Shown: piece after piece, positions 9,005 to 63,861 of the stretch | Position numbering within the stretch: position 1 is the stretch's first letter | Layout: every line of letters starts with the position of its first letter | From: Chiloscyllium plagiosum | Lineage: Eukaryota | Length of the DNA stretch: 64,000 nt | Direction: 5' to 3' | Assembly (NCBI RefSeq): GCF_004010195.1 | Contig: NC_057718.1 | Location: 93,101,569-93,165,568, forward strand | The notes under the pieces: generated by a model | What the model saw: only the letters and a program-made list of their open reading frames with translations | The model's database searches: none | What the model was told of the DNA's origin: nothing | Translations under genes and position numbers: made by a program

Positions 9005-9442
9005 GTAACATCACCATTGTTCCGGAGGACTATAGAGTTACTCTCTCTCTTTGGAGAGAGAGAGAGATAGAGAGACAACTAGTGGTGAGTTTAACCTGAG
9101 GGTCACCATGCCTCAGGAGAAGGGCAAGGTTAAGAAGGTGGGACCTTCACAGTGCCCAGAACAGGAATTGAACCCATGACATTGGCAGCACAATCCAGCT
9201 GTCCAACTAACTGAGAGAAAGTGAGGACTGCAGATGCTGGAGATCAGAGTCAAGAAGTGTGGTGCTGGAAAAGCACAGCCAGTCAGATAGCATTCGAGAA
9301 GCAGGAAAGGGGACTTTTCAAGCATAATGAAGAGCTTGTGCTGAAAACATTGACTCTCCTGTTCCTTGGATGCTGCCTGACCAGCTGTGCTTTTCCAGCA
9401 CCACACTTTTTCACTCTGTCCAGCTAACTGAGCGAACTAACC
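9005..9442 (-). mobile_element. tRNA-derived SINE (family not assigned), interrupted by a family A element
   Basis: Reverse complement of the SINEs at 18405 and 19038 (gtgaccctcaggttaaac..caccactagttgtctctc). Confidence 0.65.
9216..9415. mobile_element. Family A fold-back PLE-derived element with 17-bp TSD
   Basis: Arms gtgtggtgctggaaaagcacagc and gctgtgcttttccagcaccacac are reverse complements; TSD ctgtccaactaactgag 9199-9215 / ctgtccagctaactgag 9416-9432; hammerhead cores decayed. Confidence 0.85.
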
Positions 9443-10123
9443 TAATTAACAACCGTGATTTGGCGATGCTGGTCTTGGACTGGGGTGTACAAAGTTAAAA
9501 ATCACACAATATCAGGTTATAGTCCAACAAGAAGCATTAGCTTTTGGAGTGCTGTTCCTTCATCAGGTGGTTATGGTTACAGCAAAAGTTTACAGTGTGA
9601 TGTAACTGAAATTATATATTGAAAAAGATAAGGATTGTTTGTTAAATCTCTCATCTTTTACAATGGGCATGTTAGTTTCAGTTCTTTCATATGTAATCAC
9701 AGAACTTTCTTAATGTTACATTCTCAAGGGAACTTTAACAATAGGTGTCATGTTGGCCCAGACAATGCATTGAAGGTGTGAGGTGCCCTGTGTGAGGCTG
9801 TCTGTGCCCCAATGTTCAAACTGATTCTAATCTAAAAAATGGTTTTACAGAATCTTACATAGATTCATGCAGTTTTTCAGCAAAATAAAAATAATTCTGC
9901 AAGTGTAAATTCACCCCACAAATTTATATGTGTGTGTGTGTCCGTGTATATGTGTCCAGGGGCTGGGTATAAGTGTTTGTGAGAGAGTGTGTATGTGTAT
10001 GTGTGTGACTGTGAGTGTAACGGGGTATATGTGTGTGAGAGGGTGCGTGTGGGAGTGTGGGAGTGTGTGAGTGTGTGAGTGTATGCGAGAGAGCTTGTGT
10101 ATGACAGAGAGTCATACACTCCC

Positions 10124-11172
10124 ACACTCATCTTGTACACCTCTATCAAGTCACCCCTAAACCTTCTTTTCTCCAATGAAAACAGCCCCAAGTGCCTCAG
10201 CCTTTCCTCATACGATCTTCCTACCATACCAGACAACATCCTGGTAAACCTCCTCTGCACCCGTTCCAGTGCCTCCACATCCTTCCTAGAGTATGGCGAC
10301 CAAAACTGCACANNNNNNNNNNNNNNNNNNNNNNNNNNNNNNNNNNNNNNNNNNNNNNNNNNNNNNNNNNNNNNNNNNNNNNNNNNNNNNNNNNNNNNNN
10401 NNNNNNNNNNNNNNNNNNNNNNNNNNNNNNNNNNNNNNNNNNNNNNNNNNNNNNNNNNNNNNNNNNNNNNNNNNNNNNNNNNNNNNNNNNNNNNNNNNNN
10501 NNNNNNNNNNNNNNNNNNNNNNNNNNNNNNNNNNNNNNNNNNNNNNNNNNNNNNNNNNNNNNNNNNNNNNNNNNNNNNNNNNNNNNNNNNNNNNNNNNNN
10601 NNNNNNNNNNNNNNNNNNNNNNNNNNNNNNNNNNNNNNNNNNNNNNNNNNNNNNNNNNNNNNNNNNNNNNNNNNNNNNNNNNNNNNNNNNNNNNNNNNNN
10701 NNNNNNNNNNNNNNNNNNNNNNNNNNNNNNNNNNNNNNNNNNNNNNNNNNNNNNNNNNNNNNNNNNNNNNNNNNNNNNNNNNNNNNNNNNNNNNNNNNNN
10801 NNNNNNNNNNNNNNNNNNNNNNNNNNNNNNNNNNNNNNNNNNNNNNNNNNNNNNNNNNNNNCCCCTCCTCCAGGTCATTTATAAAAATGACAAACAGCAA
10901 TGGTCCCAAAACAGATCCTTGCGGAACACCGCTAGTGACAGCATTCCAAGATGAACCTTTGCCATCAACTACTACCCTCTGTCTTCTTCCAGCCAGCCAA
11001 CTCCTAATCCAAACCTCCAACTCACCCTCAATGCCATACCTCCGTATTTTTTGCAGTAGTCTACCATGGGGAACCTTATCAAACGCCTTACTAAAATCCA
11101 TATACACCACATCTACTGCTTTCCCCTCGTCCACCTCCTTAGTCACCTTCTCAAAGAATTCAATAAGGTTTG
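10124..11172 (-). mobile_element. Young CR1-type LINE fragment spanning an assembly gap
   Basis: [17 protein letters not shown] and [20 protein letters not shown]; nearly identical to 14350-15249. Confidence 0.92.
10313..10861. other. Assembly gap (549 N)
   Basis: Run of N. Confidence 1.
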
Positions 11173-11542
11173 TGGGGTGAAGTTGTACTTGCAGAATTAC
11201 ATTTTATTTTGCTCAAAAGCTGCATGAATCCGTGTGAGACTCTGTAAATCCATTTTTTAAATTAGAATCAGTTTGAACATTGTGGCAGAGACAGCCTCAC
11301 ACAGGGCACCTCACACCTTCACTGCATTATCTGGGCCAATATGACACCAATTGTTAAAGTTCACTTGAGAATGTAAAAAAGTTCTGTGATTTACATATGA
11401 AAGAACTGAAACCAACATGTTCATTCGAATAGATGAGAGATTTAACAAACAATCCTTATCTTTTTCAATATATAATTTCAGTTACATCACACTGTAAATT
11501 TTCACTTTAAATTCTGTGTCCTATAATTTTATACTCCACAAC

Positions 11543-11577
11543 CACCTGATGAAGGAACAGCGCTCTGAAAGCTCATA
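11543..11577 (+). ncRNA. Minimal hammerhead motif (family B; core intact, stems imperfect)
   Basis: cac-CUGAUGA-A-GGAA-cagcg-CUCU-GAAA-GC-UC. Confidence 0.55.
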
Positions 11578-11649
11578 CTTCCAAATAAACCTGTTGGACT
11601 ATAACCCGGTGTTGTGTGATTTTTAACTGTATAGGATCATTAAGCTCAA

Positions 11650-12146
11650 GAGGGTTCAGAAGAGATTTAACAGGATTTTGCCAGGATTGGAGGGGTCGGG
11701 GGGTGTTGAGCAATTGAGGGGGGATGGAAGAGGCTGAATAGGCTGGGACATTTTTCACTGGAGCCTAGGAGTTGAAGGATAGAGGTTTATAAAATCATGA
11801 AGGCTATAGAGGTTTATAAAATCATGAGGGGTCTTTTCTCCAGGGTGGGAGATTTTAAGAGAAGGGAGCATATTTTTAAGGTGAGAGGAGAAAGATTAAA
11901 CAAAGATATGAGTGGCAATCTTTTTTACACAGAGTGTGGTTCGTGTGTGGAATGAATTTCTTGAGGAAAGTGGTAGATGTGGGTACAGTAACAATGTTTA
12001 AAAGATATTTAAATAAGTACATGAATAAGAAATGTTTGGAGGGATATGGGCCAAGTACAGGCAGGTGGGACTAGTTTAGTGTGGGTACATGGTCAGCATG
12101 GTCTGGTTGGACTGAAGGGTCTGTTTCTGTGCTGTATAATTCTATA
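11650..12146 (+). mobile_element. CR1 3' fragment
   Basis: agagggttcagaagagatttaacagg...gggtctgtttctgtgctgtataattctat; short internal tandem duplication at ~11779-11828. Confidence 0.85.
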
Positions 12147-16461: not shown

Positions 16462-16982
16462 AGCCAAGTGGTCGCAGGTAGATAGGATAGTGAAGAAGGC
16501 GTTTGGTATGCTTTCCTTTATTGGTCAGAGTATTGAGTACAGGAGTTGGGACATCATGTTGCAGCTGTACAGGTCATTGGTTAGGCCACTGTTGGAATAT
16601 TGTGTGCAATTCTGGTCTTCTTCCTATGTGAAACTTGAAAGGGTTCAGAAAAGATTTACAAGGATGTTGCCAGGGTTGGAGGATTTGAGCTACAGGGAGA
16701 GGCTGAACAGGCTGGGGCCGTTTTCCCTGGAGCATCAGAGGCTGAGGGGTAACCTTATAGAGGTATACAAAATTATGAGGGGCATGGATAGGATAAATAG
16801 GCAAAGTCTTTTTCCTGAGGTCGGGGAGTCCAGAACTAGAGGGCATAGGTTTAGGGTGAGAGGGGAAAGATATAAAAGAGACCTAAGGGGCAACTTTTTC
16901 ACACAGGGGGTGGTATGTGTATGGAATGAGCTGCCAGAGGATGTGGTGGAGGCTGGTACAATTGCAACATTTAAGAGGCATT
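16462..16982 (+). mobile_element. CR1 fragment lacking its 3' tail
   Basis: ORF 16454-17008 LVRPLLEYCVQFWS...ATFKRH stops abruptly at the duplicated segment. Confidence 0.9.
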
Positions 16983-17753
16983 CCTCACTTTCTCCGTTTC
17001 AAACATAAGCCCTTCATCAGGAACATTCTTTGACTCTGCCTCAAATATCAGTATATTGTTCCTTAAATAATGGGCCCCAAACTGTTCACAGTATTCCAGC
17101 TGTGATCTAAGTAATGCATTGCACTGTTTTAGTTAGACCTCCCTATTTCTTTAATCCATTCACCTTTGAAATAAAATGTAACATTCCATTTGCCTTCCCT
17201 TTTACTTGCTGAGCTTGTACACTAGTTGTTTTTTTCTGATTTATGCACTAGCACTCCAGTTTCACTGAGGGTCAACATCCTCAATAAGATACACTTGGGA
17301 CACATAGGAATCAATAAGTGCGGAGCCAGGGCTCTACCATCAGTGTGGTGGGGCTGGGATCTCCAAGAAGATTGAAGACATCATAGTGGTTGCACTATTC
17401 ACAGGCCTGAACAAGCAGAGCCACTGATCCCTAATATCTTCCCCATCAGACCAGGGGAACGTGAGAGAACTGACCTTTTTATGTTTGTCAGGTATTCTTA
17501 CCGTATTATAAAACTAAGGATTGAGGATGCTGGAAATCTGAAACAAATAAAGTTTCTGTAGACATGCAGCAGGTCTGACAGCATGTGCGTATAGAATACA
17601 AACTAAATGTTTCTTGTCTGTGACCCTTCCTCAGAACTAGAACCAGCTGGGAAAAAGCAGTACTGAAGCTGATGTCGGGGGTGGGGAATTGGGGGAGCCA
17701 TGTGAGCAATAGGTGGAGAGAGTCCTGTCACGAAATTGGTTGCTTTCAGTATA
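16982..17753 (+). repeat. 772-bp inverted duplication, copy 1 (partner 34978-35749)
   Basis: Base-by-base reverse complement of 34978-35749, about 6 substitutions and no indels by manual comparison. Confidence 0.95.
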
Positions 17754-17848
17754 TAGGAGAAAGTGAGGACTGCAGATGCTGGAGATCAGAGCTGAAAATG
17801 TGTTGCTGGAAAAGCGCAGCAGGTCAGGCAGCATCCAAGGAGCAGGAG

Positions 17849-17884
17849 AATCAACGTTTCGGGCACAAGCCCTTCTTCAGGCTT
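17849..17884 (-). ncRNA. Minimal hammerhead ribozyme motif (family A)
   Basis: CUGAAGA-A-GGGC-UUGU-GCCC-GAAA-CG-UU on the minus strand. Confidence 0.7.
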
Positions 17885-17982
17885 CTGATCTGCAGTCCTC
17901 ACTTTCTCCTCGAAGATTTTAACCTACTGCGAATCCTCTTGCAAGGATGCCTTCCTTGAAGAAGCTCTCTTCCTCCCTCTAC

Positions 17983-18018
17983 ATTCCTGAAGAAGGGCTT
18001 GTGCCCGAAACGTCGATT
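17983..18018 (+). ncRNA. Minimal hammerhead ribozyme motif (family A)
   Basis: AUUC-CUGAAGA-A-GGGC-UUGU-GCCC-GAAA-CG-UC-GAUU; complete core, predicted cleavage after 18014. Confidence 0.75.
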
Positions 18019-18404
18019 CTCCTGCTCCTTGGATGCTGCCTGACCTGCTGCACTTTCACAGCAAGAAAAGGTTAGGGTCTAAGCTACCTTCTCAAAATAT
18101 TTTGAAGTGGGGTCTGGCCTGGTTCATGATGCTTGTCTGCTTATTCTGCTGTTGAAACAATGGCAAAGTTCATAGATTCGTGAGGACTGATGTATTTTGG
18201 CTGATCGTTGAACCAAAGCTAAATGCATCACAACTCACTGGATGGGAATTCTATTGGACATTAAAACTCAGCTGGGCATGAAATTAACATTGAACCCAAA
18301 CTCAGTAGTTTCTTGAAAGGCTGGGATAAGTTAAAATTTGCCCCACTCTTTCCACTTGCATTATCCACGAAGCTGCTTAGCTTTGTGACATCAATTGAAA
18401 TGAG

Positions 18405-22460: not shown

Positions 22461-22587
22461 TACTTCTTTGAGATACTTTGCTGGATTGAGGAATAAATTA
22501 TAAAGTCAGATTTTTTTAAAATTTGGAATTTTGATTCCTTACCTGCTGTGAATGGGATATGTATTAAAGCATGAGGTGTGTTGGGGA

Positions 22588-24675
22588 AATGCACCAAAAT
22601 GCAGCTCCTCACATTTATCTGAATTAAACTCCATCTGCCACTTCTTAGCCCATTGGCCCATCTGGTCAAGATCCTGTTGTAATCTGAGGTAACCCTCTTC
22701 GCTGTCCACTACACCTCCAATTTTGGTGTAATCTGCAAACTTACTAACTTTACCTCTTATGCTCGCATCCAAATCATTTATGTAAATGACAAAAAGTAGA
22801 GGGCCCAGCATCGATCCTTGTGGCACTCCACTGGTCACAGGCCTCCAGTCTGAAAAACAACCCTCCACCACCACTCCCTGTCTTCTACCTTTGAGCCAGT
22901 TCTGCATCCAAATGGCTAGTTCTCCCTGTATTCCATGAGGTCCAACCTTGCTAAACAGCCTCCCATGGGGAACCTTGTCAAACGCCTTACTGAAGTCCAT
23001 GTAGATCACATGTATTGCTCTGCCCTCATCAATCTTCTTTGTTACTTCTTCAAAAAACTCAATCAAGTTTGTGAGACATGATTTCCCATGCACAAAGCCA
23101 TGTTGGCTATCCTGAATCAGTCCTTGCCTTTCCAAATACATGTACATCCTGTCCCTTAGGATTCCCTCCAACAACTTGCCCACCACCGACACCAGGCTCA
23201 CTGGTCTATAGTTCCCTGGCTTGTCTTTACCGCCCTTCTTAAACAATGGCACCACGTTTGCCAACCTCCAGTCTTCCGGCACTTCACCTGTGACTATCGA
23301 TGATACAAAGATCTCAGCGAGAGGCCCAGCAATCACTTCTCTAGCTTCCCACAGAGTTCTCAGGTCAGGTCCTGGGGATTTATCCACCTTTACCCATTTC
23401 AAGACATCCAGCACTTCCTCCTCTGTAATTGGACATTTTGCAAGATGTCACCATCTATTTCCCTCCAGTCTATGTCTTCCATATCCTTTTCCATAGTAAA
23501 TACTGATTCAAAATATTCATTTAGTATCTTCCCCATTTTCTGTGGCTCCACACAAAGGTCGCCTTGCTGATCTTTGAGGGGCCCTATTCTCTCCCTAGTT
23601 ACCTTTTTGTCCGTAATATATTTGTAAAAACCCTTTGGATTCTACTTAATTATATTTGTCAAAGCTATCTCATGTCCCCATTTTGCCCTCCTGATTTCAC
23701 TCTTTAGTATACTCCTACTTTCTTTATATAATCTTCTCAGGATTCACTTGATCTATCCTGTCTAAACCTGACATATCTTCCTTCTTTTTCTTAACCAAAC
23801 CCTCAATTTCTTTAGTCTTCCAGCATTCCCTATACCTACCAGCCTTCCCTTTCACCCTGACAGGAATGTACTTTCTCTGGATTCTTGTTATTTCATTTCT
23901 GAAGGCCTCCCATTTTCCAGCCGTCCCTTTACCTGCGAATATCTGCCTCCAATCAGCTTTCAAAAGTTCTTGCCTAATAACGTCAAAATTAGCCTTTTTC
24001 CAAGTTAGAACTTCAACTTTTAGATCTGGTCTATCCTTTTCCATCACTATTTTAACACGAATAGAATTATGGTCGCTGGCCCCAAAGTGCTCCCCCACTG
24101 ACACCTCAGTCACCTACTCTGCCTTATTTCCCAAGTGTAGGTCAAGTTTTGCACCTTCTCTAGTAGGTATATCCACATACTGAATCAGAAAATTGTCTTG
24201 TACACACTTAAGGAATACCTCTCCATCTAAACCTTTAACACTATGGCAGTCCCACTCGATGTTTGGAAAGTTAAAATCCCCTACCATAACTACCCTATTA
24301 TTCTTACAGATAGCTGAGGTCTCCTTACAAGTTTGTTTCTCAATTTCCCTCTGACTATTTGGGGGGGGTCTATAATACAATCGCAATAAGGTGATCATCC
24401 CTTTCTTATTTCTCAGTTCCACCCAAATAACTTCCCTGGATGTATTTCCAGGAATATCCTCCCTCAGCACAGCTGTAATGCTACTCCCCCTCCTCTCTTG
24501 CCTCCCTTTCTATCCTTTCTGTAGCATTTGTATCCTGGAACATTAAGCTGCCAGTCCTGCCCATCCCTGAGCCATGTTTCTGTAATTGCTATGATCCTAA
24601 CCATGCCCTGAGTTCATCTGCCTTCCCTGTTAGGCCCCTTGCATTGAAATAAATGCAGTTTAATTTATTAGTCCT
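22588..24675 (-). mobile_element. Long CR1 ORF2 remnant (APE endonuclease and RT)
   Basis: VVMVGDFNFPNIEW (ORF 24114), SDHNSI (ORF 23724); 291-aa ORF 22539-23414 with [28 protein letters not shown] and FADYTK. Confidence 0.95.
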
Positions 24676-26896: not shown

Positions 26897-27058
26897 AAAT
26901 TAGATTTCCTACAGTGTGGAAACAGGCCCTTCAGCCCAACCAGTCCACACCGACCCTGCGAAGAGTAACCCACCCAGAGCCATTTCCCTCTGACTAATGC
27001 ACCTAATACTATGGGCAATTTAGCATGGCCAATTCACCTAACCTACACATCTTTGGAC
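26897..27058 (-). mobile_element. HE1-type SINE 3' part
   Basis: Matches 3440-3585. Confidence 0.85.
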
Positions 27059-27403
27059 AATTAATAGATCGTGCCTGAAAGCAGACATAACCACACGTAC
27101 CTGTAATTTAATAAGTCATTCCTTGGTAAAGTACTTTAATATTTTTAAACTGGAAGTTGCCAAAAAAAAGTATATACATTATTTAAAAGTATGAGCATGT
27201 GAACGTCATGCACTTAACTCTTCTCAATACCTTAATCCTATTCAGAGAATTACATTTTTAAGCTGCAGGTGACTATTGAACTAAAACATTAAGCCACACA
27301 CAACATTCAGATAGGGGTAACAGTGACACTGATCCTATTGAAGGTGATTTTAAAAATATAATTGATTGGACGAGGGTGTCCCTGGCTAGGGTATTCATCC
27401 CTA

Positions 27404-27672: not shown

Positions 27673-27674
27673 CC

Positions 27675-28410: not shown

Positions 28411-28659
28411 TGTTCTGTGCAATCTTTCAACAAAGTTCAAGAACATGTTTGAGATGTTGAACTCTACCACTGCGACTGGGGAAGCACTGAGCCAATGCAA
28501 AGCATTCATAATTCCGGAGCCAGTCTCTCAAAAAGATGGACTGAACAGTTAGAAAAATGATGGAGAACGCAGCTTTCAGACTACATAGCAGCAATAGCTG
28601 CACCAAGATAGTGACAGTGAATCAGATTAATCTGCAATAGCTCTTTTTAATGTTTAACC

Positions 28660-28845
28660 ATGTTGTGGAGGAGCTGGTGTTGGCCTCGGGTGGGCAAAGT
28701 TAAAAATCACACAACACCAAGTTATCGTCCAACATGTTAATTTGAAAGCACTAGCTTTCGAAGCACTGCTCCTTCATCAGGTGGTTGGCTAGTGCATCCA
28801 AATAAACCTGTTGGACTATAACCAGGCATTGTGTGATTTTTAATT
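28660..28845. mobile_element. Family B short fold-back element
   Basis: ttaaaaatcacacaacaccaagttatcgtccaaca ... tgttggactataaccaggcattgtgtgatttttaa inverted ends. Confidence 0.85.
28749..28783 (-). ncRNA. Minimal hammerhead ribozyme motif (family B, best copy)
   Basis: CAC-CUGAUGA-A-GGAG-cagug-CUUC-GAAA-GC-UA-GUG: stem I CAC/GUG, paired stem II, palindromic AGCU. Confidence 0.75.
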
Positions 28846-29829
28846 TTAATGTCGAAGCAATTGTTAAGCCACTCCATCAGTGGAAATTTTGAAATGCTTA
28901 ACAATCCAATGGGAAATATATATTTATGGAAAGAGTGGCCCTGAATTTCAACTGAGTAAATATCACTATATTAATGTGATCCATGTAAATGCTGCAAACC
29001 CAGCAGTGGACCTGTAGATGAACTCCCTTTTCCCAAGAGTAAAGGGATAAATAAATCATTGACACAGTTGTACAGATAGGATTAGCTTCATCGACACCTC
29101 TCAAGTCCTGACAAGTGGTCGAGAAAACTGTATGCGGCTCAAACTGACCTTGGGTACAGCCAGCTTGTTGTCTTTCATGGTTTGGCAGTGGATTCTTCAG
29201 ATCTTGAGGGGGAGCACTCCCTGAACAGACAAATTGCCACGTACGCAACAACCTAAACTCTGCAGCCTTGCCTTTCTCTCTCTCCAAGTGCTGTAGTAGC
29301 GGTAGATGATGCTGTACATCCAAGCACAAACTTCCTGGGCTGATTGCTCTGATTATAAAATATCATTAGACCAGAATTTATATTGCTTCATATATAAACT
29401 GACTTAGCCAGGAAACTCCCAGCAACTCCCTCTGCTGGTGAATGGTGTGACTTCCGAGCAGAACAATTGGCTTTGAGGAAACTTGAGGCCTACTTCTTTG
29501 TGTAGTGCTATTTATTTGCGTCACTGTCAAATAGTCTATTTTCTCACAGACCACGGCCTTAGACACCCGTTTTACATCAGAATGCTGAAAGCGTGTTTGT
29601 TTATATATATTTGGGCCACACACTTTTTGCATTGTCAGCGATTCCACAGCTTTGGCAGGAGTGTGAGTAATAATATCCCTTGCAGCCTCTCAGATATGCT
29701 ACGCCACTCATCAGTATCATGGTTGATCTGCACATTAATTCCATTTTCTTGCCTCTACTCTTTGATATCCTTGTCTAACAAAAAAAAAACTATCTTCCTT
29801 GGTCTTAAAAGCTCAACTTGTTCCAGAAG

Positions 29830-30390
29830 CTATCCTAAATTAATCTCATCCCATTGGCCAGCATTTGCCCCACATCCCTTCCTATTCATATTCCCATCCA
29901 GATACATTTTAAGTGTTGTAATTGTACCAGCATCTACCACTTCCTCTGGCAGTTCATTCCATATACACATCACTCTCTGCAGGAAAAAGTTGCCCTTTAG
30001 GTCCCTTTTAAATCTTGCCCCTCTCACCTTAAGGCTATTCCCTCTAGTTCTGGACTCCCCTATCCTGGAGAAAAGACCTTGATTATTTACCCATCCATGC
30101 CCCTCATGATTTTATAAACCTCTATAAGGTCACCCCTCAGCCTCTGACATCCAGGGAAAACAGCTCAGCCTATTCAGCCTCTCCCTGTATCTCAAACCCT
30201 CAACCCTGGCTAAAAGTCGCGCAACACCAGGTTATAGTCCAAAAGGTTTAACTGGAAGCATTAGCTTTCAGAGCGCTGCTCCTTCATCAGGATGTGTGAT
30301 TTTTAACTTTGTACACCCCAGTCCAACACTGGCATCTCCAAATCCAACCCTGGCAACATCCTTGCAAATCTTTTCTGAACCCTGTCAAGT
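29830..30390 (-). mobile_element. CR1 3' fragment interrupted by a family B element
   Basis: ORF 29830 FKRDLKGNFFLQRVMCIWNELPEE. Confidence 0.88.
30211..30344. mobile_element. Family B element with 10-bp TSD, nested in CR1
   Basis: TSD caaccctggc 30201-30210 / 30345-30354; minus-strand CUGAUGA-A-GGAG-cagcg-CUCU-GAAA-GC-UA at ~30262-30290. Confidence 0.88.
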
Positions 30391-31265: not shown

Positions 31266-31608
31266 CATAGAATCATAGAATCCCTACAGAATGGAAGCAG
31301 GCAATTTGGCCCATCAAGTCCACACCGATCCTTTGAGGAGCATCCCACCTAGACCCACCCCACTACCTGATCCCTGTACCACTTTATTCCCCATGGCTAA
31401 TCAACCTAACCTACACATTCCTGGACAATATGAGCAATTTAGCATTGCCCATCCATCTAACCTGCACATCTTTGGACCTGTGGGAGGAAACCAGAACACC
31501 AAAGAAACCCATGCAGACACTGAGAGAAGCTGCAAACTCCAGAGTGACTTAAGTGTGGGGTCCCTGGTGCAGGGAGGCAGCAGTGTTACCCACTGAAACA
31601 CTGTACCA
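31266..31608 (-). mobile_element. HE1-type SINE
   Basis: (catagaat)n tail, V-domain and tRNA-like head. Confidence 0.85.
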
Positions 31609-32008
31609 TCCAATATTTGTTCATATAATTTGTCTGTACAATGCTTACAATAACAATAGACATAATCATTTCATACCTTTCTATCAGTTCTGCAGCAGCT
31701 GAGATGTAGAACTAGAATGCTTATTGAAGGTGGAGACTATTCAGCCCATTGACCCATACAAACTCTCTGTAAAGCAATGTAGTTGGTCCCAATATGATAC
31801 CCTTCTTTTGTGGCTCTGTAAATCTGTATTCCCTTCCAATTGCTCACCCAATTCCCCTTTGAAAGCCAAACTTGATTCTGCTTCCACCAATCTCTCAGAT
31901 AGTGCACTCCAGATTGTTGTACAGAGTAGGTTTATCCTTCCATTGCCTTTGATCTGTGGCTCAACACTTTAAACCTATGTCCTTTGGATCTTGACCCTAT
32001 AATACTGA

Positions 32009-32112
32009 AGAAGGGCTTCCTGAAGAAGGGCTTATGCCCGAAACGTTGATTCTCCTGCTCCAGCACCACATTTTTCAACTCTGGTCTCCAGCATCTGCAG
32101 TCCTCACTTTCT
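32009..32112 (+). mobile_element. Family A element with 13-bp TSD
   Basis: TSD cctataatactga 31996-32008 / 32113-32125; ends gcatctgcagtcctcactttct(cc). Confidence 0.88.
32017..32050 (+). ncRNA. Minimal hammerhead ribozyme motif (family A)
   Basis: UUC-CUGAAGA-A-GGGC-UUAU-GCCC-GAAA-CG-UU-GAU. Confidence 0.7.
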
Positions 32113-33194
32113 CCTATAATACTGATGGAAACTGTCTGCCTCTGTTATCATTGGTGCATTTTTACAATAGAAGGCTTCTTCTTTCAGTTTACCATTCTGT
32201 TTCCACTTTTTCCATTTAATCTCCCTTTCCTTCTTATCAGGCTACCACATAGTCAAACAATAGCTCAATCTGCTTCAGTAAACATTTACTAAAATCACTT
32301 AAATACATCCCTGCTCCAGAGGTGGTTAATAAAATCACTTAAAGAGCACAGTCACGTGAGTAATTCATTTTTATTGATACAGATGGTAGTCAGTTTGATC
32401 GATTGAATGTTACATGTAGAGAATTGGATGGTTACAGTGTTTGAAATCTAAAAGACTTGATTTTGCTTCCAACCCTGTCAACAGCTCTTCTACTCAAAAA
32501 TTGCTCAATATTTCTCTGTTTAATGGGAGCAGGTGTCCAAGTTGTCTTTCCTGGACTGTCAATTCAATAAACTCAGTAGCTGAGGACTTACTGTTGTCCT
32601 TGGTATTTCATTATCTCTAACCACATTTATTATACTAAATCTAATTTTTTGAATAGAAGTTGTTAATTGACCCAAAGCTAGTTGCTCTATTAAGTTATCA
32701 ATTTCACTCATCAATAACACTATTTATCTCCAGTTTGGCTTCAGGTTTATTTGTATTAAATTTATGCTTTGACATTCCAGGTAATTCTATTTCTTAAAAA
32801 AAAAGGTTACTTGCTGTGTCAATTACCGTTCTCAGGTTTTTAAAAGACCTGAATGTCTCCATCTCGATCTTCTTGGGTGCTGCTGGCAAGGGAGCCTGCT
32901 TGAAATGGTTAGCTTCAAACTGGGCGCTAACTCTGGACACCTGATTGGCACTGCCAGCTATTAAGTAAGTTACGGGACTCGAGTAGGGTCAGCCATGGAA
33001 CTGTGATTCCATGCTGCAGACTGCCCCTCTTATTTCCATCATCTTTCACAGGGAAGGAAATTTTGATGTGGGATAGAGTAGGCAATTGCAGAAGACCAAT
33101 GTCAGCTCATTTTATGAGCTGTTTGTGTTTTAAAGAGATAGCACCATTATGCAGAAGGTGTGTTGTGTTTGAGGATGGGAGAATCCAAGTATTC

Positions 33195-34977: not shown

Positions 34978-35749
34978 TATACTGAAAGCAACCCATTTCA
35001 TGACAGGACTCTCTCCACCTATTGCTCACATGGCTCCCCCAATTCCCCACCCCCGACATCAGCTTCAGTACTGCTTTTTCCCAGCTGGTTCTAGTTCTGA
35101 GGAAGGGTCACAGACAAGAAACACTTAGTTTGTATTCTATACGCACATGCTGTCAGACCTGCTGCATATCTACAGAAACTTTATTTGTTTCAGATTTCCA
35201 GCATTCTCAATCCTTAGTTTTATAATACGGTAAGAATACCTGACAAACATAAAAAGGTCAGTTCTCTCACGTTCCCCTGGTCTGATGGGGAAGATATTAG
35301 GGATCAGTGGCTCTGCTTGTTCAGGCCTGTGAATAGTGCAACCACTATGATGTCTTCAATCTTCTTGGAGATCCCAGCCCCACCACACTGATGGTAGAGC
35401 CCTGGCTCCGCACTTATTGATTCCTACGTGTCCCAAGTGTATCTTATTGAGGATGTTGACCCTCAGTGAAACTGGAGTGCTAGTGCATAAATCAGAAAAA
35501 AACAACTAGTGTACAAGCTCAGCAAGTAAAAGGGAAGGCAAATGGAATGTTACATTTTATTTCAAAGGTGAATGGATTAAAGAAATAGGGAGGTCTAACT
35601 AAAACAGTGCAATGCATTACTTAGATCACAGCTGGAATACTGTGAACAGTTTGGGGCCCATTATTTAAGGAACAATATACTGATATTTGAGGCAGAGTCA
35701 AAGAATGTTCCTGATGAAGGGCTTATGTTTGAAACGGAGAAAGTGAGGA
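34978..35749 (-). repeat. 772-bp inverted duplication, copy 2 (probable donor)
   Basis: Reverse complement of 16982-17753; here the family A elements at its right edge continue intact with their TSD. Confidence 0.95.
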
Positions 35750-35978
35750 CTGCAGATGCTGGAGATCAGAGCCCGAAGAAGGGCTCATGCCCGAAATGTC
35801 GATTCTCCTGCTCCTTGGATGCTACCTGACCTGCTGCGCTTTTCCAGCAACACATTTTCAGCTCTTATGTTTGAAACGTCAACTCTCCTGCTCCTCGGAT
35901 ACTGCCTGACTGGCTGTGCTTTTCCAGCACCACACTTCTTGACTCTGACTCTCCAGTATCTGCAGTCCTCACTTTCTT
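35707..35978 (+). mobile_element. Older family A element containing a younger family A insertion (35737-35863)
   Basis: 15-bp TSD cttatgtttgaaacg 35722-35736 / 35864-35878 lies inside the older copy's hammerhead motif. Confidence 0.88.
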
Positions 35979-40173: not shown

Positions 40174-40377
40174 TAAAAACAGAAAGATCTGCGGATGCTG
40201 TAAATCAGAAACAAAAACAGAAGTTGCCAGGAAGCTCAGCAGGTCTGGCAGCATCCGTGAGGAGAAATCAGAAGAACCCTTTTGAGGAAGGGTCACCTGA
40301 CCCGAAACGTTAACTCGGATCTCTCTTCACAGATGCTGCCAGGCCTGCTGAGCTTATCCAGCAACTTCTGTTTTTGC
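40174..40377. mobile_element. Family C fold-back PLE-derived element
   Basis: Arms caaaaacagaagttgccaggaagctcagcagg / cctgctgagcttatccagcaacttctgtttttg; motif UUGAGGA-A-GGGUCA-cc-UGACCC-GAAA-CG-UU at 40282-40311 (C3>U). Confidence 0.85.
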
Positions 40378-41100
40378 TCCACGTAATATGTCCAGGCCTT
40401 TTGATTACTAGTCCAGTCACTTCCATGTTTTGATAGTCTTCTGTTTATTATAAGCAAAGTAAGTTCATAGTTTATAATCACCACAGATCTGTACCAGACA
40501 ATCTGTACTAGATCTGTATCTGATGATCTGTACTGTTTCCAGTTATTCATATCAGACATTGTCTCAATTTCTATCAGTAGCTATGATGCTATGAGCAGAA
40601 GTGAGAGAGATACCTACCACAATCAGAATCCAGTTGAAAGTCATTGGCACCATTTACGTTATACCCTGAAGCATTCATTTATAGTTAATTGTCTTCCCCA
40701 ACTTCATAATAAAAATTGCACAACTGCCTTGAGTTTGAGATTGACTGTGTCTGTAGGAGGAAGTCAACCAGGCATAATTTAAACAGCTTTACTTTTGATA
40801 CAGGAAATAAAACACTGTCAGTTTGATGGTTATTGTAAAAGTCATACCAATTTGTACCAACAAGTTGAGGAAAGTTATTCACCGAATTTGTGGTTAATTT
40901 TGTGCTGATAAACTGAGATGCTATAATGCTAACAGTAAGAAGTCATATATACAACAGTTTGGAACACTTTAACCCAATATTGTTGTATAAGACAATTAGT
41001 ACCTGAAAGAATGACCTGATATCATGAGTTTTGTTCCATTTATCATGGTTTAATCGATTGTTACTGTGTGGCGATAAAGAATCTTAAATGTGTCTGTATT

Positions 41101-44537: not shown

Positions 44538-44790
44538 TGAAACAAAAATGGAAAGTGCTGAAGAAATTCAGCAGGTGGGACTGATAGGTAGAAAAACAGA
44601 GTTAACTTTTAAAATCCGGTGGGCCTTAATATGCCTGACGCTATTTGTTCAGCTTCACTGTTCTGTTTAGGGTAACTAGACTTGAAATGTTAACTCTGTT
44701 CTCTCCACAGAAGTTGCTAGACCTGTTACGTTTCTCCAGCACTTTCTCTTTTTGTTTCAAATTTTTGACATCCACTGTTCTTTGTTTTAT
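44538..44790. mobile_element. Family C-like fold-back element (decayed)
   Basis: gaaacaaaaatggaaagtgctgaagaaa...acagagttaac / gttaactctgt...ctccagcactttctctttttgtttc. Confidence 0.65.
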
Positions 44791-48464: not shown

Positions 48465-49810
48465 AGACCATAAAGACCATAATATGAAGGAACAAAGGTC
48501 GACCATTTGGCCCACTGAGTTTGCTCCACAATGCAATGACATCATAGTTGATCTGATCATCCCCAAATCCACTTTCCTGCCTCATTCCCTTACCCCTCAA
48601 TTCCCGTACTGATTAGAAGCAGTTGTAAATCGGCCTCTAATGAACTTAATGAACCCAGCCTCAACAGCTATCTGTGGTCAAAATATCCACAGAATGACTA
48701 ACCTCTGAAAAAGAGGAATGGGCACTCCTTACTCTGAGGTTATACCCTGTGGTCCTAGACTTCTCCATACGGGGAATCAGTCTCTTAGCATCTTCCTTGT
48801 TAAGTCCCCGAAGAGTGTAGTATGTTTCATAAATGTCTTCTGGCCGTCCAGATGATACAAATACAAGCCCATACTCAATACTCAGAATTAATCTTGTGAA
48901 CCTCTTAGCATGGCCTCCTATGCCACTATATTATTCCTTAGATAAATGGACCAAAACTGTTAACTTTATTCTAGCTGTAGTCTTATCAGTACCTTACCAG
49001 CTTTTAGCAAGCCCGCCCTTTGTAATTTAATGCTGTCATCTACGTTATCTATGATGCTGCCTAACGTTGTGTAATTTTCAAATCTCGATTTGACTTTCCA
49101 TGTCATTAGGAGAAAATGAGGACAGGTAGGGTTTATGCTCGAAACGTCGACTCTCCTGCTCCTCGGATGCTACCTGACCGGCTGTGCTTTTCCAGCACCA
49201 CACTCTTCCTTTCTCTGCCATTATCCTAGTATTCATAAATAATGTGAATGACTGAGGGCCTAGCACAGATCCTGGTGGGACACCCATTGGTCATAGCCTG
49301 CCAATTTCAATACCGAGCCATTATCCCTATTTTCTGTCACCTGCCACTCAACTAATTGCTCAGTCCTGTCAGCAATTCCATTGGCTCCTATTTTAGTTAA
49401 CAGTTTCTTATATGGGACTTCACTAAATGCCTTCTGGAAATCCAGATAAACCACATCCATAGACATTCCCCGGTCCACTACCTTTGTTACTTCCTCAATA
49501 ACTGAATGAGGTTTGTCATGCATGCGCTATCTGTTATGAATCCACACTGACTCTCCCTGATAAACTGAAAAGGTTTGAGATGTTCACTTACCCCATCCTT
49601 GATTATAGACTCTAATGATTTCCCCACCACACATATTAGGCAAACTGCTTCCACTTTATCTGTTCTGCTTGTTATCTCCTGCAAGAACTCTAAGAAAGTT
49701 ATGAGGCATAATTCCATCTTCATGAAGCCATACAGTCTCTGCTTGGCCATATAATGTATTTCTAAAGGCTCTATTATTATGTCCTTTATACTTGACTCTA
49801 ATATTAGTTA
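48465..49810 (-). mobile_element. Old CR1 remnant(s)
   Basis: MDVVYLDFQKAFSEVPYKKL (ORF 49260) and GVPPGSVLGP (ORF 49078); tail (gaccata)n. Confidence 0.8.
49109..49208. mobile_element. Family A element fragment with degenerate 15-bp TSD
   Basis: ggagaaaatgaggac + gggtttatgctcgaaacgtcgactctcctg...; TSD ctttccatgtcatta 49094-49108 / ctttctctgccatta 49209-49223 (12/15). Confidence 0.8.
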
Positions 49811-53640: not shown

Positions 53641-54608
53641 TGTGACATTTATTTTAGAGTCTGGATTTTGAACAAATGGCGCGAGGGTCTTGGCTTTGTG
53701 TAAGAAGCGATTTAATTATTAAACTTATTAGTCTTTCTGGAACGATGATCTTTGAACTAGTTTGTGGCAGAGAGCAAGTGACCGGGCCCTTAAAGTCATT
53801 AGCTCACTTTTGGTTTAGGAGAAGAAAGAATTGATTTTTTTATGCTCAGGGCAAAACTAATGGATTTGAAAGCTTTTGATTTCAGTTCAGAGAAGACCTG
53901 GTGGGGGTCAGATGTAAGAACAATTTTTTTCCTGTGGAAGGAATCAGTTCAGAAAAGTTAGAAATTAAGTTAACTCCAAAGTAAAGCTTTGAGTTTGAAA
54001 ATTCCAGACCTGAAGTGTTTGGGTAGGACCCTGAAAAAGTTATTTGAAGCTAAGAATATTTCAGGCCATTTGTCTGAATAATCAAGGACGAGGCTGTGAA
54101 GTTCTCAAGACTGCGAATTGAAAGAAATAGTTAGATGTTAAAGGGAAGAGAATTCTCTCTGGTATTTGAGTATGATAAAGCTTTGATGTTGGGATAGATG
54201 AAGTTTTATTCTGCCTTACGCTTTGAAATCTTTCAACTCCTGTCCAAAGTAAATAAAAACTGAAAGAACTGTACATGCTGGAAATCAGAAACAAAAACAG
54301 AAATTCACGAAAAGGCTCAGCATGTCTGACATTATCTGTAGAGAGAAATCGCAGTTAACATTTCGGGTCCAGTGCCCTTTCCTCAGAACTCAGTAAGTAA
54401 CTTGGTTGGTTTTATTTTATATTCCCATTTCTCTGAAGAATGAACTTCTCTCTTTTTGTTAAAACCAATTCTACAGCTTTGCGTGTATATATTTTAATGA
54501 ATGACCAGCCGAATGAATTACAAAACAAACCTAAAAACTGATCAATGAAGTCAGATTTCAATCAGGGATCTGACATGTCTAGTGACAACACCAGTTGAGA
54601 TCAGAACA
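53641..54608 (+). mobile_element. Possible solo LTR (second family)
   Basis: Starts TGTGAC, ends GAACA; flanks tatt/catt; no second copy in the window to confirm it. Confidence 0.4.
54250..54390 (-). mobile_element. Family C element
   Basis: Minus strand AGUU-CUGAGGA-A-agggcacuggaccc-GAAA-UG-UU-AACU (54353-54390) with 4-bp stem I; possible TSD agtaa(a/g)taa. Confidence 0.8.
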
Positions 54609-55564
54609 CATTAACACAACATCCCCAGGCTTTTGATGGAGAGAATTAGTAGTTAGTGAAGATCAGGAATGTGCATGGTGTTTCCTGGTTTTTACGCCAA
54701 ATAGCAAGCTGTAAGTTTAAGACAGTGCCTTCATTTTTGACAATTAGCACACCAGAGGTAATTGCTTCTCCCTACCTATCATATATCATTGTATACATCT
54801 CGGTCAGATCAACTCTTAATCTTTAAAACTCAAAGGAATGTCAACCAATTTAAACAACCTGGGCTATAACATAATTCAAGTCCTTTATGATGCTGTTCCG
54901 CGCATGCTGCCTGACTTTCTAGGCTTTTCCAGCAACACATGTCTTGACCCATCAATGAACAGGACAGTATCGGCATGCCAGTACTTGACCGGCATTTTAA
55001 AGTGGGCACGTCAGCACAATTCTAATGAGGAACAAGTTTGTCCAGAAATGACACAATGATAAAATGAAACTAGAATTGATCGAGAGGGCACCATAGAGAT
55101 GGCGTTGATCATTAATTAATCTAGTTTTGTAAGATCTGGCAAGAAAACTTGCCAGGCCTCACAGAGTGAAAACATCAATGAAACTCAACAAAACTGACAA
55201 TTAACGGTAAAAAACAGTTAGATTCAGTTCTTCAGTTTACTCTCCCTGTGATAAATACCACCACTCTCGCTAGGCACACCAGTCTGTAGTTCCCTGGCTT
55301 TTCCTTGCATCTTTCCTTAAATAATGGTACAATATGCCAGAGAGGAATTGACAACAAATTTCTTTCGATTTCAATATGGTCATCTCCTTCTGTACATGCC
55401 TCCAGTCTCACCTCCCCGATGTGGGGCAAACAGTGGAACATTGAAAATATAATCTCTTTCAATGTTGAAGGATCTTCTGGGGGAGATATTGAGGAAAAAG
55501 GTTATTTTCATTGCCTCTATCAATGCCCCCCCTTATCCTGCTGGATGCCTACAATTGGAATGAA

Positions 55565-56132
55565 AGCTGTGACTCTGGTGAGTCTTGGCCAGCTCAGGAA
55601 CTGCCCCTGGCTGAGGCGAAGGTAGAAGAGATGTTGCCTGGTAACATGTAGTGAGACCTTTCCTCATCCTCCATTTGTGCAAAGGAACATAGGAACAGGA
55701 GTAGGCCATTTGGCCCCTCAAACTTATTCTGTCATTCCCTGAGATCATGACTGATTTGTGGCCTAATTCCATATACCTGCCTTTGGCCTTTAGCCCTTAA
55801 TACCTTTGTGAAACAAAAGAAAAATCTATCTCAGCTTTAAAATTAGCACTGTGTTAGCATCCATGGTCATTTGTAGAAGAGAGTTACAAATGTCTCCTGC
55901 TCCTTGGCTGCTGTCTGACCAGCTGTGCTTTTCCAGTGCCACACTTTTCGACCCATCAATGAGCAGGAGAGCGTCGGAAGGCCAGTACAGGACTACTCCT
56001 GTTCCTATGTTTCTTTGCACAAATGGAGGATGAGGAAAGGTCCCGCCACACGTTACCAAGCAACAACTCTTCTACCTTCTCCTCAGCCAGGGGCATCTCC
56101 TGATCTGGCCAAGACTCACCAGTGCCACAGCT
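55565..56132. repeat. 140-bp inverted repeat (55565-55704 / 55993-56132)
   Basis: Ungapped reverse complement with about 13 mismatches by manual count. Confidence 0.9.
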
Positions 56133-61840: not shown

Positions 61841-62503
61841 TCGAGTAACTCAATGAGCCTGACAGCATCTGTGGAGAGGAAACAGAGTTAAAGTTTCAAG
61901 TTACTCAAAATGTTAACTCTGTTTTCACTCGACATATTACCTCAATGTTTAAGAGTAATATTGTGAAGAATGACAAATGTCATTGCGATAAGGTTAGGAT
62001 TAGGGTCTTATCCATGCACTGAGCATTGAAGCACATTCATTATTTACCAAGTTGCCTGTAAGAAATGGGATTATCAGCCCCCTGTGAAGTTGCAAGATTT
62101 TATTTGCAATCAGGGTCTTGATAATCAGCCACTTCCTCCCTGTGTTATCCTCTGACAGCCTCCATGAAGGAACAAAATTCTTGAGAACCCTCATCAGCAA
62201 AGAGGAAGAATGGAAGATTACAGAGAAAGGGATGCCTGTGATCTCAAGGTCAAGGACCAATCCCACCTCCTGGAAACACCTACCAAACGTGCGATTGGAG
62301 ATGTGGTTCTCAGATTGAGTTCATCAGCCACACAAATACCCACAGAACCCATAACCAGTGATGTGGGATTTCCTCATGGACAATCATTTTAGCGATGTTT
62401 GCCGATGATGAATGTCACACTAAACTTGTATGTTGTCCACAGAAATGGTAGGCAACAGGTTAATCATGAGGGAGCTATTTATGAACTGTATCTGTGGCAT
62501 GAA

Positions 62504-62836
62504 TGGGAAGCATGGTGGCTCAGTGGTTAGCACTGCTGCCTCACAGTGCCAGAGACCTGCGTTCAATTCCACCCTTGGGTGACTATCTGTGTGGAGTTTA
62601 CACATTGTCTGTGTGGGTTTCCTCCACGTACTCTAGTTTCCTCTCACAGTCCAAAGATGTACAGAGTAGTTGGATTGGCCCTGCTAAATTGCCCATAGTG
62701 TCATGGGGTGTGCAGGCTAGGTGGATTAGCCATGGGAAATGCAGGGGTTACAGGGATAGGGTAGGGGAATGGGTTTGATTGTGATTCTCTTTGGAGGGGT
62801 GGTGTGGATTTGATGGGCTGAATGATCTGCTTCCAC
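62504..62836 (+). mobile_element. HE1-type SINE
   Basis: catggtggctcagtggttagcactgctgcctcacag...ccaaagatgtac...ttctatga. Confidence 0.88.
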
Positions 62837-63102
62837 ACTATAGGAATTCTATGAATGAGTTTTGAGGTGCTGTGGTAGTGTCCATAGCCTCTGAGCCAAA
62901 AGATTTGGATTCAAGTCCTCATGTGTCATAACATGTCTGAACAGAGAAATTAAAATAACAAAAGAAAATGTATAGTGTGCTAAACTAAATTTAATTATAC
63001 TTGAAGTAACAATTAAAATGGCTTAATACACAAAATAAATCAAAAGTCAAAATATGATAATAAGTGCCAAAGGACCTTTAAAAAAAATCATTCATGGGAT
63101 GT

Positions 63103-63205
63103 AGAACATAGAACATTACAGAGCATGACAGGCCCTTCGGCCCATGATGTTGCGCCAAACTGTGAAACCAATCTGAAGCCCATCTAACCTACACTATTCC
63201 ATTTT
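63103..63205 (-). mobile_element. CR1 3'-end fragment
   Basis: (agaacat)n tail and caggcccttcggcccatgatgttgcgcc, as at 14350. Confidence 0.75.
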
Positions 63206-63272
63206 TGTCCTGTCTTAAGTCGAAGAAAAATAACTTTGCCTCCTCCAGGATCTAGAAACCCATTCCAAGGAA

Positions 63273-63861
63273 GTTAAAAATCACGTAACACTGGGTTATA
63301 GTCCAACAGGTTTAATTGGAAGCACTAGCTTTCAGAGCGCTGCTCCTTCATCAGCTGGTTGTGGAGTACACAATTGTAAGACACAGAATTTATAGCAAGT
63401 TACATTGTACTTTGTTCAAAAACTGCATGAATCCTTGTAAGACTCAACTCATTTTTTAGATTAGAATCAGTCTAAACATTGTAGCACAGACAGCAGCACA
63501 CAGGGGGCTAACACCTTCAACACATTATCTGGGCTTACACCAATTGTTAAAGTTCACCTGAGAATGTAACTTTTTAAAAAAGGTTTTGTGATTTACATAT
63601 GAAACAAGTGAAACTAACATGGTCATTCTAACAGATGAGAGACTTAACAATCAAGGTGTTTTTCAATGTATAATTTCATTTCCATCACACTGTAAACTTT
63701 TGCTATAAATTCTGTGTCTTACAATTGTGTCCTCCACAATCACCTGATGAAGGAGTGGCGCTCCAAAAGCTAGTGCTTCCAATTAAACCTGTTGGACTAT
63801 AACCTGGTGTTGTGTGATTTTTAATTTTGTACACCGCATTCCAACACCAACATCTCCAAAT
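63273..63861. mobile_element. Family B fold-back element with 12-bp TSD
   Basis: TSD cattccaaggaa 63261-63272 / 63862-63873; ~125-bp inverted arms; hammerhead motifs at 63323-63357 (-, core intact) and 63741-63775 (+, G12>A). Confidence 0.9.

What the first reader, a model, noticed from the sequence alone, without database searches (positions are those of the whole stretch)
9216..63861. Three families of short mobile elements share a structurally conserved minimal hammerhead ribozyme
Seen: more than ten motifs CUGANGA-A-[stem II]-GAAA-NN-UH in three repeat families with otherwise different sequence. The core is constant while the stems change but still pair. Family A: stem II GGGC/GCCC, stem I (AU)UC/GA(UU) (17983+, 17849-, 32017+). 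Family B: GGAG/CUCC and CAC/GUG (28749-, 30262-, 63323-, 11543+). Family C: GGGUC/GACCC and AGUU/AACU (40282+, 54353-). Stem III is reduced to a palindrome (ACGU or AGCU), and all three have one extra A between A9 and stem II. Established: minimal type-I hammerheads with a palindromic stem III occur in the terminal repeats of Penelope-like retroelements and are thought to cleave as dimers; an extra core nucleotide at this position is known from a viroid hammerhead. Inference: these are abundant non-autonomous PLE derivatives spreading ribozyme motifs through this genome. I cannot tell whether these shark families are already annotated as ribozyme carriers.
Basis: partly seen in the sequence, partly recalled or inferred. 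Interest (0 to 1): 0.75.

Follow-up and report, generated by a model that had tools for sequence, protein, structure and literature searches.

The report
Shark Penelope ends carrying minimal hammerheads
The three repeat families are end-pieces of three protein-coding Penelope-type jumping genes, each with a tiny hammerhead ribozyme motif of an already described kind; most are likely dead run-off copies of the first 90-130 letters of the element's uncut RNA, which would give a testable clue to how these elements copy themselves.

Summary
The motifs are real. A descriptor finds 63 hits in 864 kb against 0-3 in shuffles. Exact patterns give 93,870 (A), 18,482 (B) and 374 (C) genome-wide, with reversed controls at 0. 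Most window copies are decayed: 6 of 17 keep core, stem II and palindrome, and 1 of those keeps a 3-bp stem I. They are not separate non-autonomous families. Each motif sits in the terminal repeat (pLTR) behind a Penelope-like RT/GIY-YIG gene: A 24 of 30, B 26 of 30, C 24 of 30 loci. A and C are homologous. Minimal hammerheads in vertebrate pLTRs, including the extra nucleotide, are published (PMC4209133). Added here: copy 5' ends pile up at the ribozyme's 5' edge behind TATA/Inr-like motifs, not at the cleavage site. 3' ends fall at about +60 and +95. Family B RNA is polyadenylated at +29 to +32, before both. This suggests strong-stop-like copies of capped, uncut RNA (inferred). Cleavage is untested. 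The scan noted the same families and reading before on other DNA of this and other genomes.

The parts
17983..18064 (+). Family A pLTR piece starting at the first base of stem I; core 17987-18014, predicted cut after 18014; partial tail
17754..17880 (-). Family A copy starting at C3 (stem I 5' strand lost); core to 17853; full tail to about +97
17884..17982 (+). Family A tail end plus about 75 nt of element sequence beyond the tail; 99-100% identical at 40 other scored places
32005..32117 (+). Family A copy (core 32020-32047) with a 15-bp duplicated start and an internal tail deletion; flanked by a short direct repeat
35737..35867 (+). Young family A insertion (short inverted tail plus C3-damaged core at 35773) with a 15-bp target duplication, nested in an older A copy (35707-35981)
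9215..9424 (.). Head-to-head fold-back of two decayed family A ends with a 9-bp or longer target duplication (the Rfam MIR844 hit)
28656..28847 (-). Family B insertion: best-preserved motif (core 28780-28752, stem I 3 bp, stem II 5 bp), full tail, short inverted arm, 9-bp target duplication
30211..30344 (-). Family B copy (core 30290-30262, stem I lost) with inverted arm and 10-bp target duplication
63271..63863 (.). Family B inverted pair: short minus copy (core 63354-63326) and long plus pLTR (core 63744-63772, G12A) ending at the ORF start; 12-bp target duplication
11169..11628 (+). Family B long pLTR piece, decayed motif at 11546-11574
9451..9922 (-). Family B long pLTR piece, decayed motif at 9566-9538
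40174..40378 (.). Family C fold-back; plus arm core 40282-40311 (C3U)
54251..54390 (-). Family C copy, core 54386-54357, stem I intact, stem II and palindrome decayed
1617..1756 (+). Family C copy, decayed core 1621-1650
35093..35210 (+). Old family C copy (core 35097), duplicated at 17634 (-)
44685..44758 (+). Family C piece lacking the 5' core
49128..49208 (+). Family A piece with partial core; further A tail pieces at 54893-54948 and 55893-55952
16978..17753 (-). 776-bp, 99% identical inverted copy of 34978-35753, bounded by family A ends

Best explanation
These repeats are the terminal-repeat (pLTR) ends of three Penelope-like retrotransposon families with RT and GIY-YIG genes, each carrying a minimal hammerhead motif, and most short copies are likely dead run-off products of reverse transcription on the element's likely capped, uncut RNA. 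Shown: linkage to ORFs, conserved core with compensated stems, 5'-end pile-up at the ribozyme's 5' edge, two 3' ends (about +60 and +95 from the predicted cut), target duplications, and poly(A) at +29 to +32 in family B RNA. Inferred: a TATA/Inr promoter starts the RNA at or just before stem I. RT would start inside the RNA at the tail, as shown for the Anolis element. On the 5' pLTR it would run 90-130 nt to the cap and insert a strong-stop-like stub. Long ORF-bearing copies would need read-through RNA, an RNA circle or a jump to the 3' repeat. The ribozyme would pair through its 4-nt palindrome as a dimer and likely cuts weakly or only with protein help.
For: Linkage: family B motifs flank an RT ORF as direct repeats in L026. 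A motif follows the ORF in 24 of 30 A loci and 26 of 30 B loci (with a stricter pattern) and follows a GIY-YIG remnant in 24 of 30 C loci (fuzzy pattern). Single RT+GIY-YIG frames of 649-893 aa end about 160-180 nt before the A motif; A and B proteins are 32% identical, both with a CX4CXXC linker. Constraint: stem I.1-I.3 pairs are CG/TA/TT (A), CG/AT/CG (B), TA/TA/GC (C); II.3 GC/AT/GC; II.4 CG/GC/TA; palindrome CG/GC/CG. Within the core boxes, common variants occur only at N7, N17 and CpG sites; loop II varies. Ends: in 1.03 Mb unbiased DNA (164 A, 51 B, 91 C copies) the 5'-end rate per nt at -40..-25 is 0.036/0.017/0.041, against 0.004/0.006/0.013 across the cut site and 0.003/0.005/0.012 further upstream. 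Genome-wide, 13,027 A copies have an untemplated purine just before stem I vs 1,715 two bases further up. Extra G: 24 G to 11 A in non-inverted rows (hand tally of 100 listed; p=0.0009 vs base composition). TATA-like motifs lie 33-40 nt before C3. RNA run X19: 499+407 reads with untemplated poly(A) at +29/+32 of family B and flat depth over the cut site; all 26 ORF-linked B copies end beyond it.
Against: No cleavage, cap or start site was measured. The extra-G excess is not significant against the control position alone (24:11 vs 23:25, Fisher p=0.075; p=0.03 pooled with 7:1), and part of family C's G is templated (10 of 100 rows). Alignment breaks from subfamily divergence can inflate the pile-up, above all in C. 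X19 is a fragmented poly(A) single-cell library of 'organism C'; its reads may come from host transcripts ending in solo copies, and a 30-nt cleaved fragment would be missed. No start or end pile-up was listed in RNA, and no poly(A) site was listed for A (413 loose ends not shown). The hammerhead dimer fold is at least 5 kcal/mol less stable than the cofold minimum in 15 of 15 cases. No complete pLTR-ORF-pLTR unit was found for A or C. Rfam gave no hammerhead hit.
Confidence: 0.62

Rival explanations
1. Circle route (Cervera and De la Pena): both hammerheads cut, the unit RNA is ligated to a circle, and RT starting in the tail copies through the junction. This would make the long copies, with short ones as aborted products.
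For: All 26 ORF-linked B copies end beyond the poly(A) site, which a simple polyadenylated mRNA cannot template. The core is conserved across families whose proteins are 32% identical, so catalysis is likely under selection.
Against: It does not explain 5' ends piling at stem I with an extra G, since a circle has no end there. There is no pile-up at +1. In the Anolis element, uncut RNA was the dominant substrate in vitro (PMC11167929). It can coexist with the best explanation for long copies.
Confidence: 0.17
2. The pile-up reflects RT stalling, protein bound on the folded ribozyme, or microhomology at fold-back junctions, not a capped RNA start.
For: 74 of 204 A cores have an inverted arm upstream. 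5' ends spread over about -38..-25 rather than one base. The extra-G test against the control is marginal.
Against: A structural stall would be expected at the 3' edge of the fold, not after it has been copied (inference). TATA-like and Inr-like motifs sit at promoter spacing in all three families. The pile-up holds in non-inverted copies.
Confidence: 0.13
3. One reading: independent non-autonomous, retrozyme- or SINE-like families derived from pLTRs that propagate as such.
For: Most copies lack ORF sequence: an endonuclease hit within 1 kb upstream in 9 of 76 A, 5 of 24 B and 1 of 22 C cores. There is a 177-bp tandem C dimer in L027, tail-to-head joints in three contigs, and a C subfamily with its own leader (10 of 100 rows).
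Against: The main A loop variants each end ORF-bearing copies. Short copies show no internal sequence of their own and have ragged 5' junctions. The window holds no tandem array of motif units.
Confidence: 0.07
4. DNA-transposon MITEs whose inverted ends mimic a hammerhead by chance.
For: Fold-back shapes at 9215-9424 and 40174-40378.
Against: The arms are unequal head-to-head pLTR pieces, a known PLE layout (PMC8557442, PMC3846280). They link to RT/GIY-YIG ORFs, and target duplications are 9-15 bp and variable (5 of 11 tested).
Confidence: 0.01

Closest known systems
Minimal hammerheads (min-HHR) in pLTRs of metazoan Penelope-like elements (Cervera and De la Pena 2014, PMC4209133; parts 1-2 of 4 read, one of two supplements searched)
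   Same: Type-I layout, no real helix III, palindromic 15.2-16.2, extra nucleotide between 9 and 10.1, G10.1-C11.1 pair, several families per genome, mostly solo truncated copies; reported in fish Xena, Poseidon and Neptune elements, coelacanth and Xenopus.
   Different: No shark in the parts and supplement searched. Copy number here (112,726 exact-pattern matches; about 300 copies per Mb by homology) is far above the 4,000-9,000 reported there. Stem I (2-4 bp) and stem II (4-5 bp) are short. The position of copy ends relative to the ribozyme is not analysed there.
Neptune-type EN+ Penelope-like elements (Craig et al. 2021, PMC8557442, passages; Arkhipova et al. 2013, PMC3846280, passages)
   Same: Single RT plus C-terminal GIY-YIG ORF, DKG motif, CX2-5CxxC linker, pLTRs, inverted 5'-truncated copies, 30-40 bp optional tail, TATA and Inr in the pLTR, pLTR-framed host duplications.
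   Different: The clade is assigned by motif only (Nematis has a similar linker); no tree against reference elements was built.
Poseidon element of Anolis carolinensis, PAc (Frangieh et al. 2024, PMC11167929; parts 1-2 of 4 read)
   Same: Two internal RT start sites explain the tail; the hammerhead lies near the ORF start; uncut RNA is the main substrate; no RNA-seq ends at the cut site.
   Different: A different clade. There the ORF starts inside the ribozyme; in family B it starts about 95 nt after the cut site. Copy 5' ends, cap and poly(A) site are not treated in the parts read.
Non-LTR retrozymes (bioRxiv 10.64898/2026.07.22.740005; parts 1-2 of 5 and passages)
   Same: Type-I hammerhead repeats derived from PLE pLTRs, present in one chondrichthyan; 1 of 9 tested dimers cleaved.
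   Different: Defined there as tandem repeats with a motif in each unit. The window copies are solo or head-to-head and match coding elements.

Membership tests
Minimal type-I hammerhead (min-HHR) | Core boxes CUGANGA, GAAA, UH in type-I order | tested here: met
   intact in 8 of 17 window cores
Minimal type-I hammerhead (min-HHR) | Stems I and II pair, with compensation between families | tested here: met
   stem II pairs 77-100% paired; I.1 and I.2 85-97%; pair types differ among A, B and C. In A, I.3 is mostly U-U.
Minimal type-I hammerhead (min-HHR) | Extra nucleotide between 9 and 10.1; palindromic 15.2/16.2 | tested here: met
   extra A in 144 of 147, 87 of 89, 26 of 26; palindrome in 120 of 147, 84 of 89, 11 of 26 (CpG decay)
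Minimal type-I hammerhead (min-HHR) | Site-specific self-cleavage as a dimer | not testable with these tools
   Dimer fold is not the energy minimum; no read-end pile-up in RNA
Rfam hammerhead families | Covariance-model hit | tested here: not met
   no hammerhead among 11 hits at E<=10
EN+ Penelope-like element | Single ORF with RT and C-terminal GIY-YIG | tested here: met
   A: (RVT_1 35.4 bits; GIY-YIG 21.5-22.9 bits around the 22.6 cut-off). B. C: GIY-YIG remnant only.
EN+ Penelope-like element | pLTR direct repeats flanking the ORF | tested here: inconclusive
   Met for B (L026); no complete unit found for A or C
EN+ Penelope-like element | Optional 30-40 bp tail, inverted 5'-truncated copies, target duplications | tested here: met
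   (A 12 ends at +61-68 and 12 at +90-99; B 13 at +52-69 and 13 at +92-99); target duplications in 5 of 11
Neptune clade | CX2-5CxxC linker between RT and EN | tested here: met
Neptune clade | RT phylogeny with reference Neptune elements | not tested
   No named reference elements were available (searches gave unnamed homologs)
Non-LTR retrozyme | Tandem units each with a complete hammerhead, independent of a coding element | tested here: not met
   None in the window; one C dimer elsewhere (L027)
MITE | Equal terminal inverted repeats, fixed short target duplication, link to a transposase | tested here: not met

The most novel reading that the evidence does not exclude
The pLTR works like a retroviral U3-R-U5 with a ribozyme as R. 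Transcription starts at stem I and polyadenylation ends about 30 nt after the cut site, so both RNA ends carry the whole hammerhead, while RT starts in the tail near the 5' end. The roughly million stubs are integrated strong-stop cDNAs. The palindrome-paired hammerhead dimer clamps the two RNA ends together for strand transfer, or cuts and circularises them, to give long copies.
Probability: 0.3. Interest if true: 0.7.

Novelty: new member of a known kind. Interest (0 to 1): 0.38.

Why it matters
The kind is known, so the motifs alone are ordinary, though the load is large (over 110,000 exact cores; about a million pieces if the 1 Mb sample is representative). The value lies in the copy ends. 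How Penelope-like elements replicate, and what their hammerheads do, is open. The sharp ends predict an RNA start at stem I, mostly uncut templates, and a poly(A) site before the RT start, each testable by CAGE, RACE or an in vitro assay with young family A. Family B stubs also carry a working poly(A) signal (hexamer in 25 of 32 sampled copies) that could end host transcripts.

Tried and rejected
Rfam scan: no hammerhead hit. Pfam GIY-YIG search of the genome was too insensitive: 1 match among 150 scored of 14,403 candidates. Pfam found nothing in 5 of 7 ORF pieces. Paired motifs 2-4 kb apart were mostly unrelated neighbours; only L026 was a full unit. Searches for a complete family A unit failed: 5' truncation or N-runs in the 50 loci, and L306 holds unrelated DNA between two pLTRs. 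The MAFFT alignment put family B one column out of register, so pairs were counted by structure-anchored indexing. double-counted A copies and was replaced. Sequencing-run search: no RNA holder listed. Run X20 laid no reads and X12 only two contigs. No pile-up of read ends at the cut site, but these libraries cannot show one. Lunse et al. (PMC5785218) is not held; I saw only its title and a summary in PMC6765202. Paper searches for hammerhead+Penelope+shark, Penelope+shark genome, transcription start and pLTR+polyadenylation+strand transfer found no description of these families or of the end pattern. The library is incomplete, Dfam and Repbase could not be searched, one Cervera supplement was unreadable, and the bioRxiv supplements naming the chondrichthyan families were not seen.
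Full report
Observation. I used a descriptor that fixes the core boxes and a 4-bp stem II but leaves the spacer and stem III free. It gave 63 hits in 864 kb (the window plus 80 stretches chosen without regard to the motif) against 0-3 in ten dinucleotide shuffles. An extra A (59 of 63) and a 2-nt palindromic insert (48 of 63) emerged unasked. Exact family patterns match 93,870 (A), 18,482 (B) and 374 (C) places in G000, and the reversed patterns match none. Rfam lists no hammerhead at E<=10. In the window most copies are damaged: of 17 cores, 8 keep both boxes, 6 also keep stem II and the palindrome, and of those only 28780- keeps three contiguous stem I pairs. Families A and C are homologous downstream.

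Is it a hammerhead motif? Among 147 A, 89 B and 26 C copies with exact core boxes, the stems pair with different letters in each family: I.1 C-G, C-G, U-A; I.2 U-A, A-U, U-A; I.3 mostly U-U, C-G, G-C; II.3 G-C, A-U, G-C; II.4 C-G, G-C, U-A; palindrome CG, GC, CG. In copies anchored on the tail alone, the core boxes vary commonly only at N7 (40% minor allele in A, 43% in C), N17 and CpG sites, while loop II is free. That is the pattern expected of selection on a hammerhead in the source elements, followed by neutral decay. For intact A1 and C motifs, stem I plus stem II is the minimum-energy monomer fold. The double-hammerhead fold is at least 5 kcal/mol above the cofold minimum in 15 of 15 cases, so spontaneous cleavage should be weak. 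Cervera and De la Pena (PMC4209133) describe this minimal form, with the extra nucleotide and palindrome, in pLTRs of fish, coelacanth and frog elements, with low in vitro activity.

What carries it. In L026 two family B motifs 2.5 kb apart flank, as direct repeats, a frameshifted Penelope-type RT ORF (DKG, GTAMG, YVDD) whose ATG lies about 95 nt after the upstream cut site. Its closest named homologs are shark proteins (65-73%). Family A motifs follow single open frames of 649-893 aa with RT and GIY-YIG; the closest named homologs are carpet-shark proteins (83% Chiloscyllium punctatum, 70% Rhincodon typus). A same-strand motif follows the coding match in 24 of 30 A loci and 26 of 30 B loci, and follows a GIY-YIG remnant, mostly by about 200 nt, in 24 of 30 C loci. 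The main A loop variants each end a copy with RT sequence upstream (the middles read N). A and B proteins are 32% identical and share a CX4CXXC linker, which Craig et al. (PMC8557442, passages) give for Neptune and Nematis; Neptune is my assignment by motif and host. In unbiased DNA only 9 of 76 A, 5 of 24 B and 1 of 22 C cores have endonuclease sequence within 1 kb upstream, so most copies are stubs. Five of 11 window insertions tested have 9-15 bp target duplications. Fold-backs are head-to-head pLTR pieces, a known layout (PMC3846280, passages).

Copy ends. In 1.03 Mb there are 164 A, 51 B and 91 C copies, about 300 per Mb. 3' ends fall in two groups, about +60 and +95 from the predicted cut, in short and ORF-linked copies alike. 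This is the PLE tail, which Frangieh et al. (PMC11167929) traced to two internal RT start sites. 5' ends pile up at -40..-25, the 5' edge of the ribozyme: 0.036, 0.017 and 0.041 ends per nt per copy at risk, against 0.004, 0.006 and 0.013 across the cut site and 0.003, 0.005 and 0.012 at -100..-41. Genome-wide, 13,027 A copies carry an untemplated purine directly before stem I, against 1,715 two bases further up. ORF-linked copies have TATA-like motifs 33-40 nt before C3 (8 of 12 shown). In A and C, stem I begins at the A of a TCA-T/G-T motif that fits the initiator consensus (recalled). By hand tally of the first 100 listed rows, the purine before stem I is G in 66 vs 34 at the control position; dropping inverted, duplicated and ambiguous rows gives 24:11 vs 23:25 (p=0.0009 against composition, Fisher p=0.075 against control). 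An extra G is the known trace of a reverse-transcribed cap (recalled from LINE-1). I rate it suggestive.

RNA. In raw run X19 (poly(A) single-cell, 'organism C'), 2,144 reads lie on the A end and 3,336 on the B pLTR. On B, 499 and 407 reads carry untemplated poly(A) at +32 and +29, after an A(A/T)TAAA at +10/+12 found in 25 of 32 sampled copies; depth is flat across the cut site. All 26 ORF-linked B copies end beyond that point. The reads may come from host transcripts, and short cleaved pieces would be lost, so this shows a working poly(A) site and the presence of uncut RNA, not the absence of cleavage.

Mechanism. Shown: identity, linkage, ends and the B poly(A) site. Inferred: the RNA starts at stem I; RT starts in the tail; on the 5' pLTR it runs off the cap, giving strong-stop-like stubs, often as inverted pairs. 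Long copies need read-through, a circle or an end-to-end jump, which the palindrome-paired hammerheads at both RNA ends could assist. I put the PLE/min-HHR identity at about 0.95 and the whole account at about 0.6. D. virilis Penelope starts further upstream, with an intron 46 nt after the start that ends at helix I (PMC2377424 passages; PMC4209133), so a splice-related boundary is conceivable. It would, however, join a constant exon to stem I, and the junctions here are heterogeneous.

Novelty. These are new members of a known kind. Searches found no paper on these families or on the end pattern, but the library is partial, Dfam and Repbase were out of reach, and unseen supplements (one Cervera file; the bioRxiv retrozyme tables) may name shark families. 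Earlier unchecked notes of this scan reach the same reading on other DNA. I had formed mine before each look-up, and they are not independent support.

Noticed in passing
window 16978-17753 and 34978-35753: A 776-bp segment is duplicated in inverted orientation 18 kb away at 99% identity. The copy is bounded by family A ends and its breakpoint includes the start of the young insertion at 35737. It resembles pLTR-framed host duplications in Adineta (PMC3846280); no target duplication was found.
   Followed up: partly
L026:5431-5434 (family B pLTR); window copies such as 63782-63805: Family B ends carry a poly(A) signal that is used in RNA run X19; stubs in sense orientation could end host transcripts.
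   Followed up: partly
family A and C tails, e.g. window 18015-18064, 40312-40378: Both tails open a short frame with a similar start about 19 nt after the cut site. In C and old A this ATG follows a pyrimidine run and AG, like a splice acceptor; young A subfamilies lost the AG.
   Followed up: no
L027:3860-4070: A tandem family C dimer with a 177-bp unit and two intact motifs; a retrozyme-like candidate and a natural substrate for a dimer cleavage test.
   Followed up: no
G000, 10 of 100 rows: A family C subfamily shares a distinct 9-nt leader before stem I, on chromosomes C1 and C2; possibly a separate source element.
   Followed up: no
window 22539-24509, 45250-47306 and many shorter pieces: CR1/L2-type LINE ORF2 fragments make up much of the window; a tRNA-like SINE family (name recalled: HE1) lies near 3441-3736, 26901-27061, 31264-31596.
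   Followed up: no
window 5306-5677 (-): An ORF fragment resembling the RNase H region of an LTR retrotransposon (recalled likeness); observed only.
   Followed up: no
L025:6410-6530: Sequence after a truncated C copy looks like the GIY-YIG end of another, possibly Poseidon-type, Penelope family (recalled likeness).
   Followed up: no
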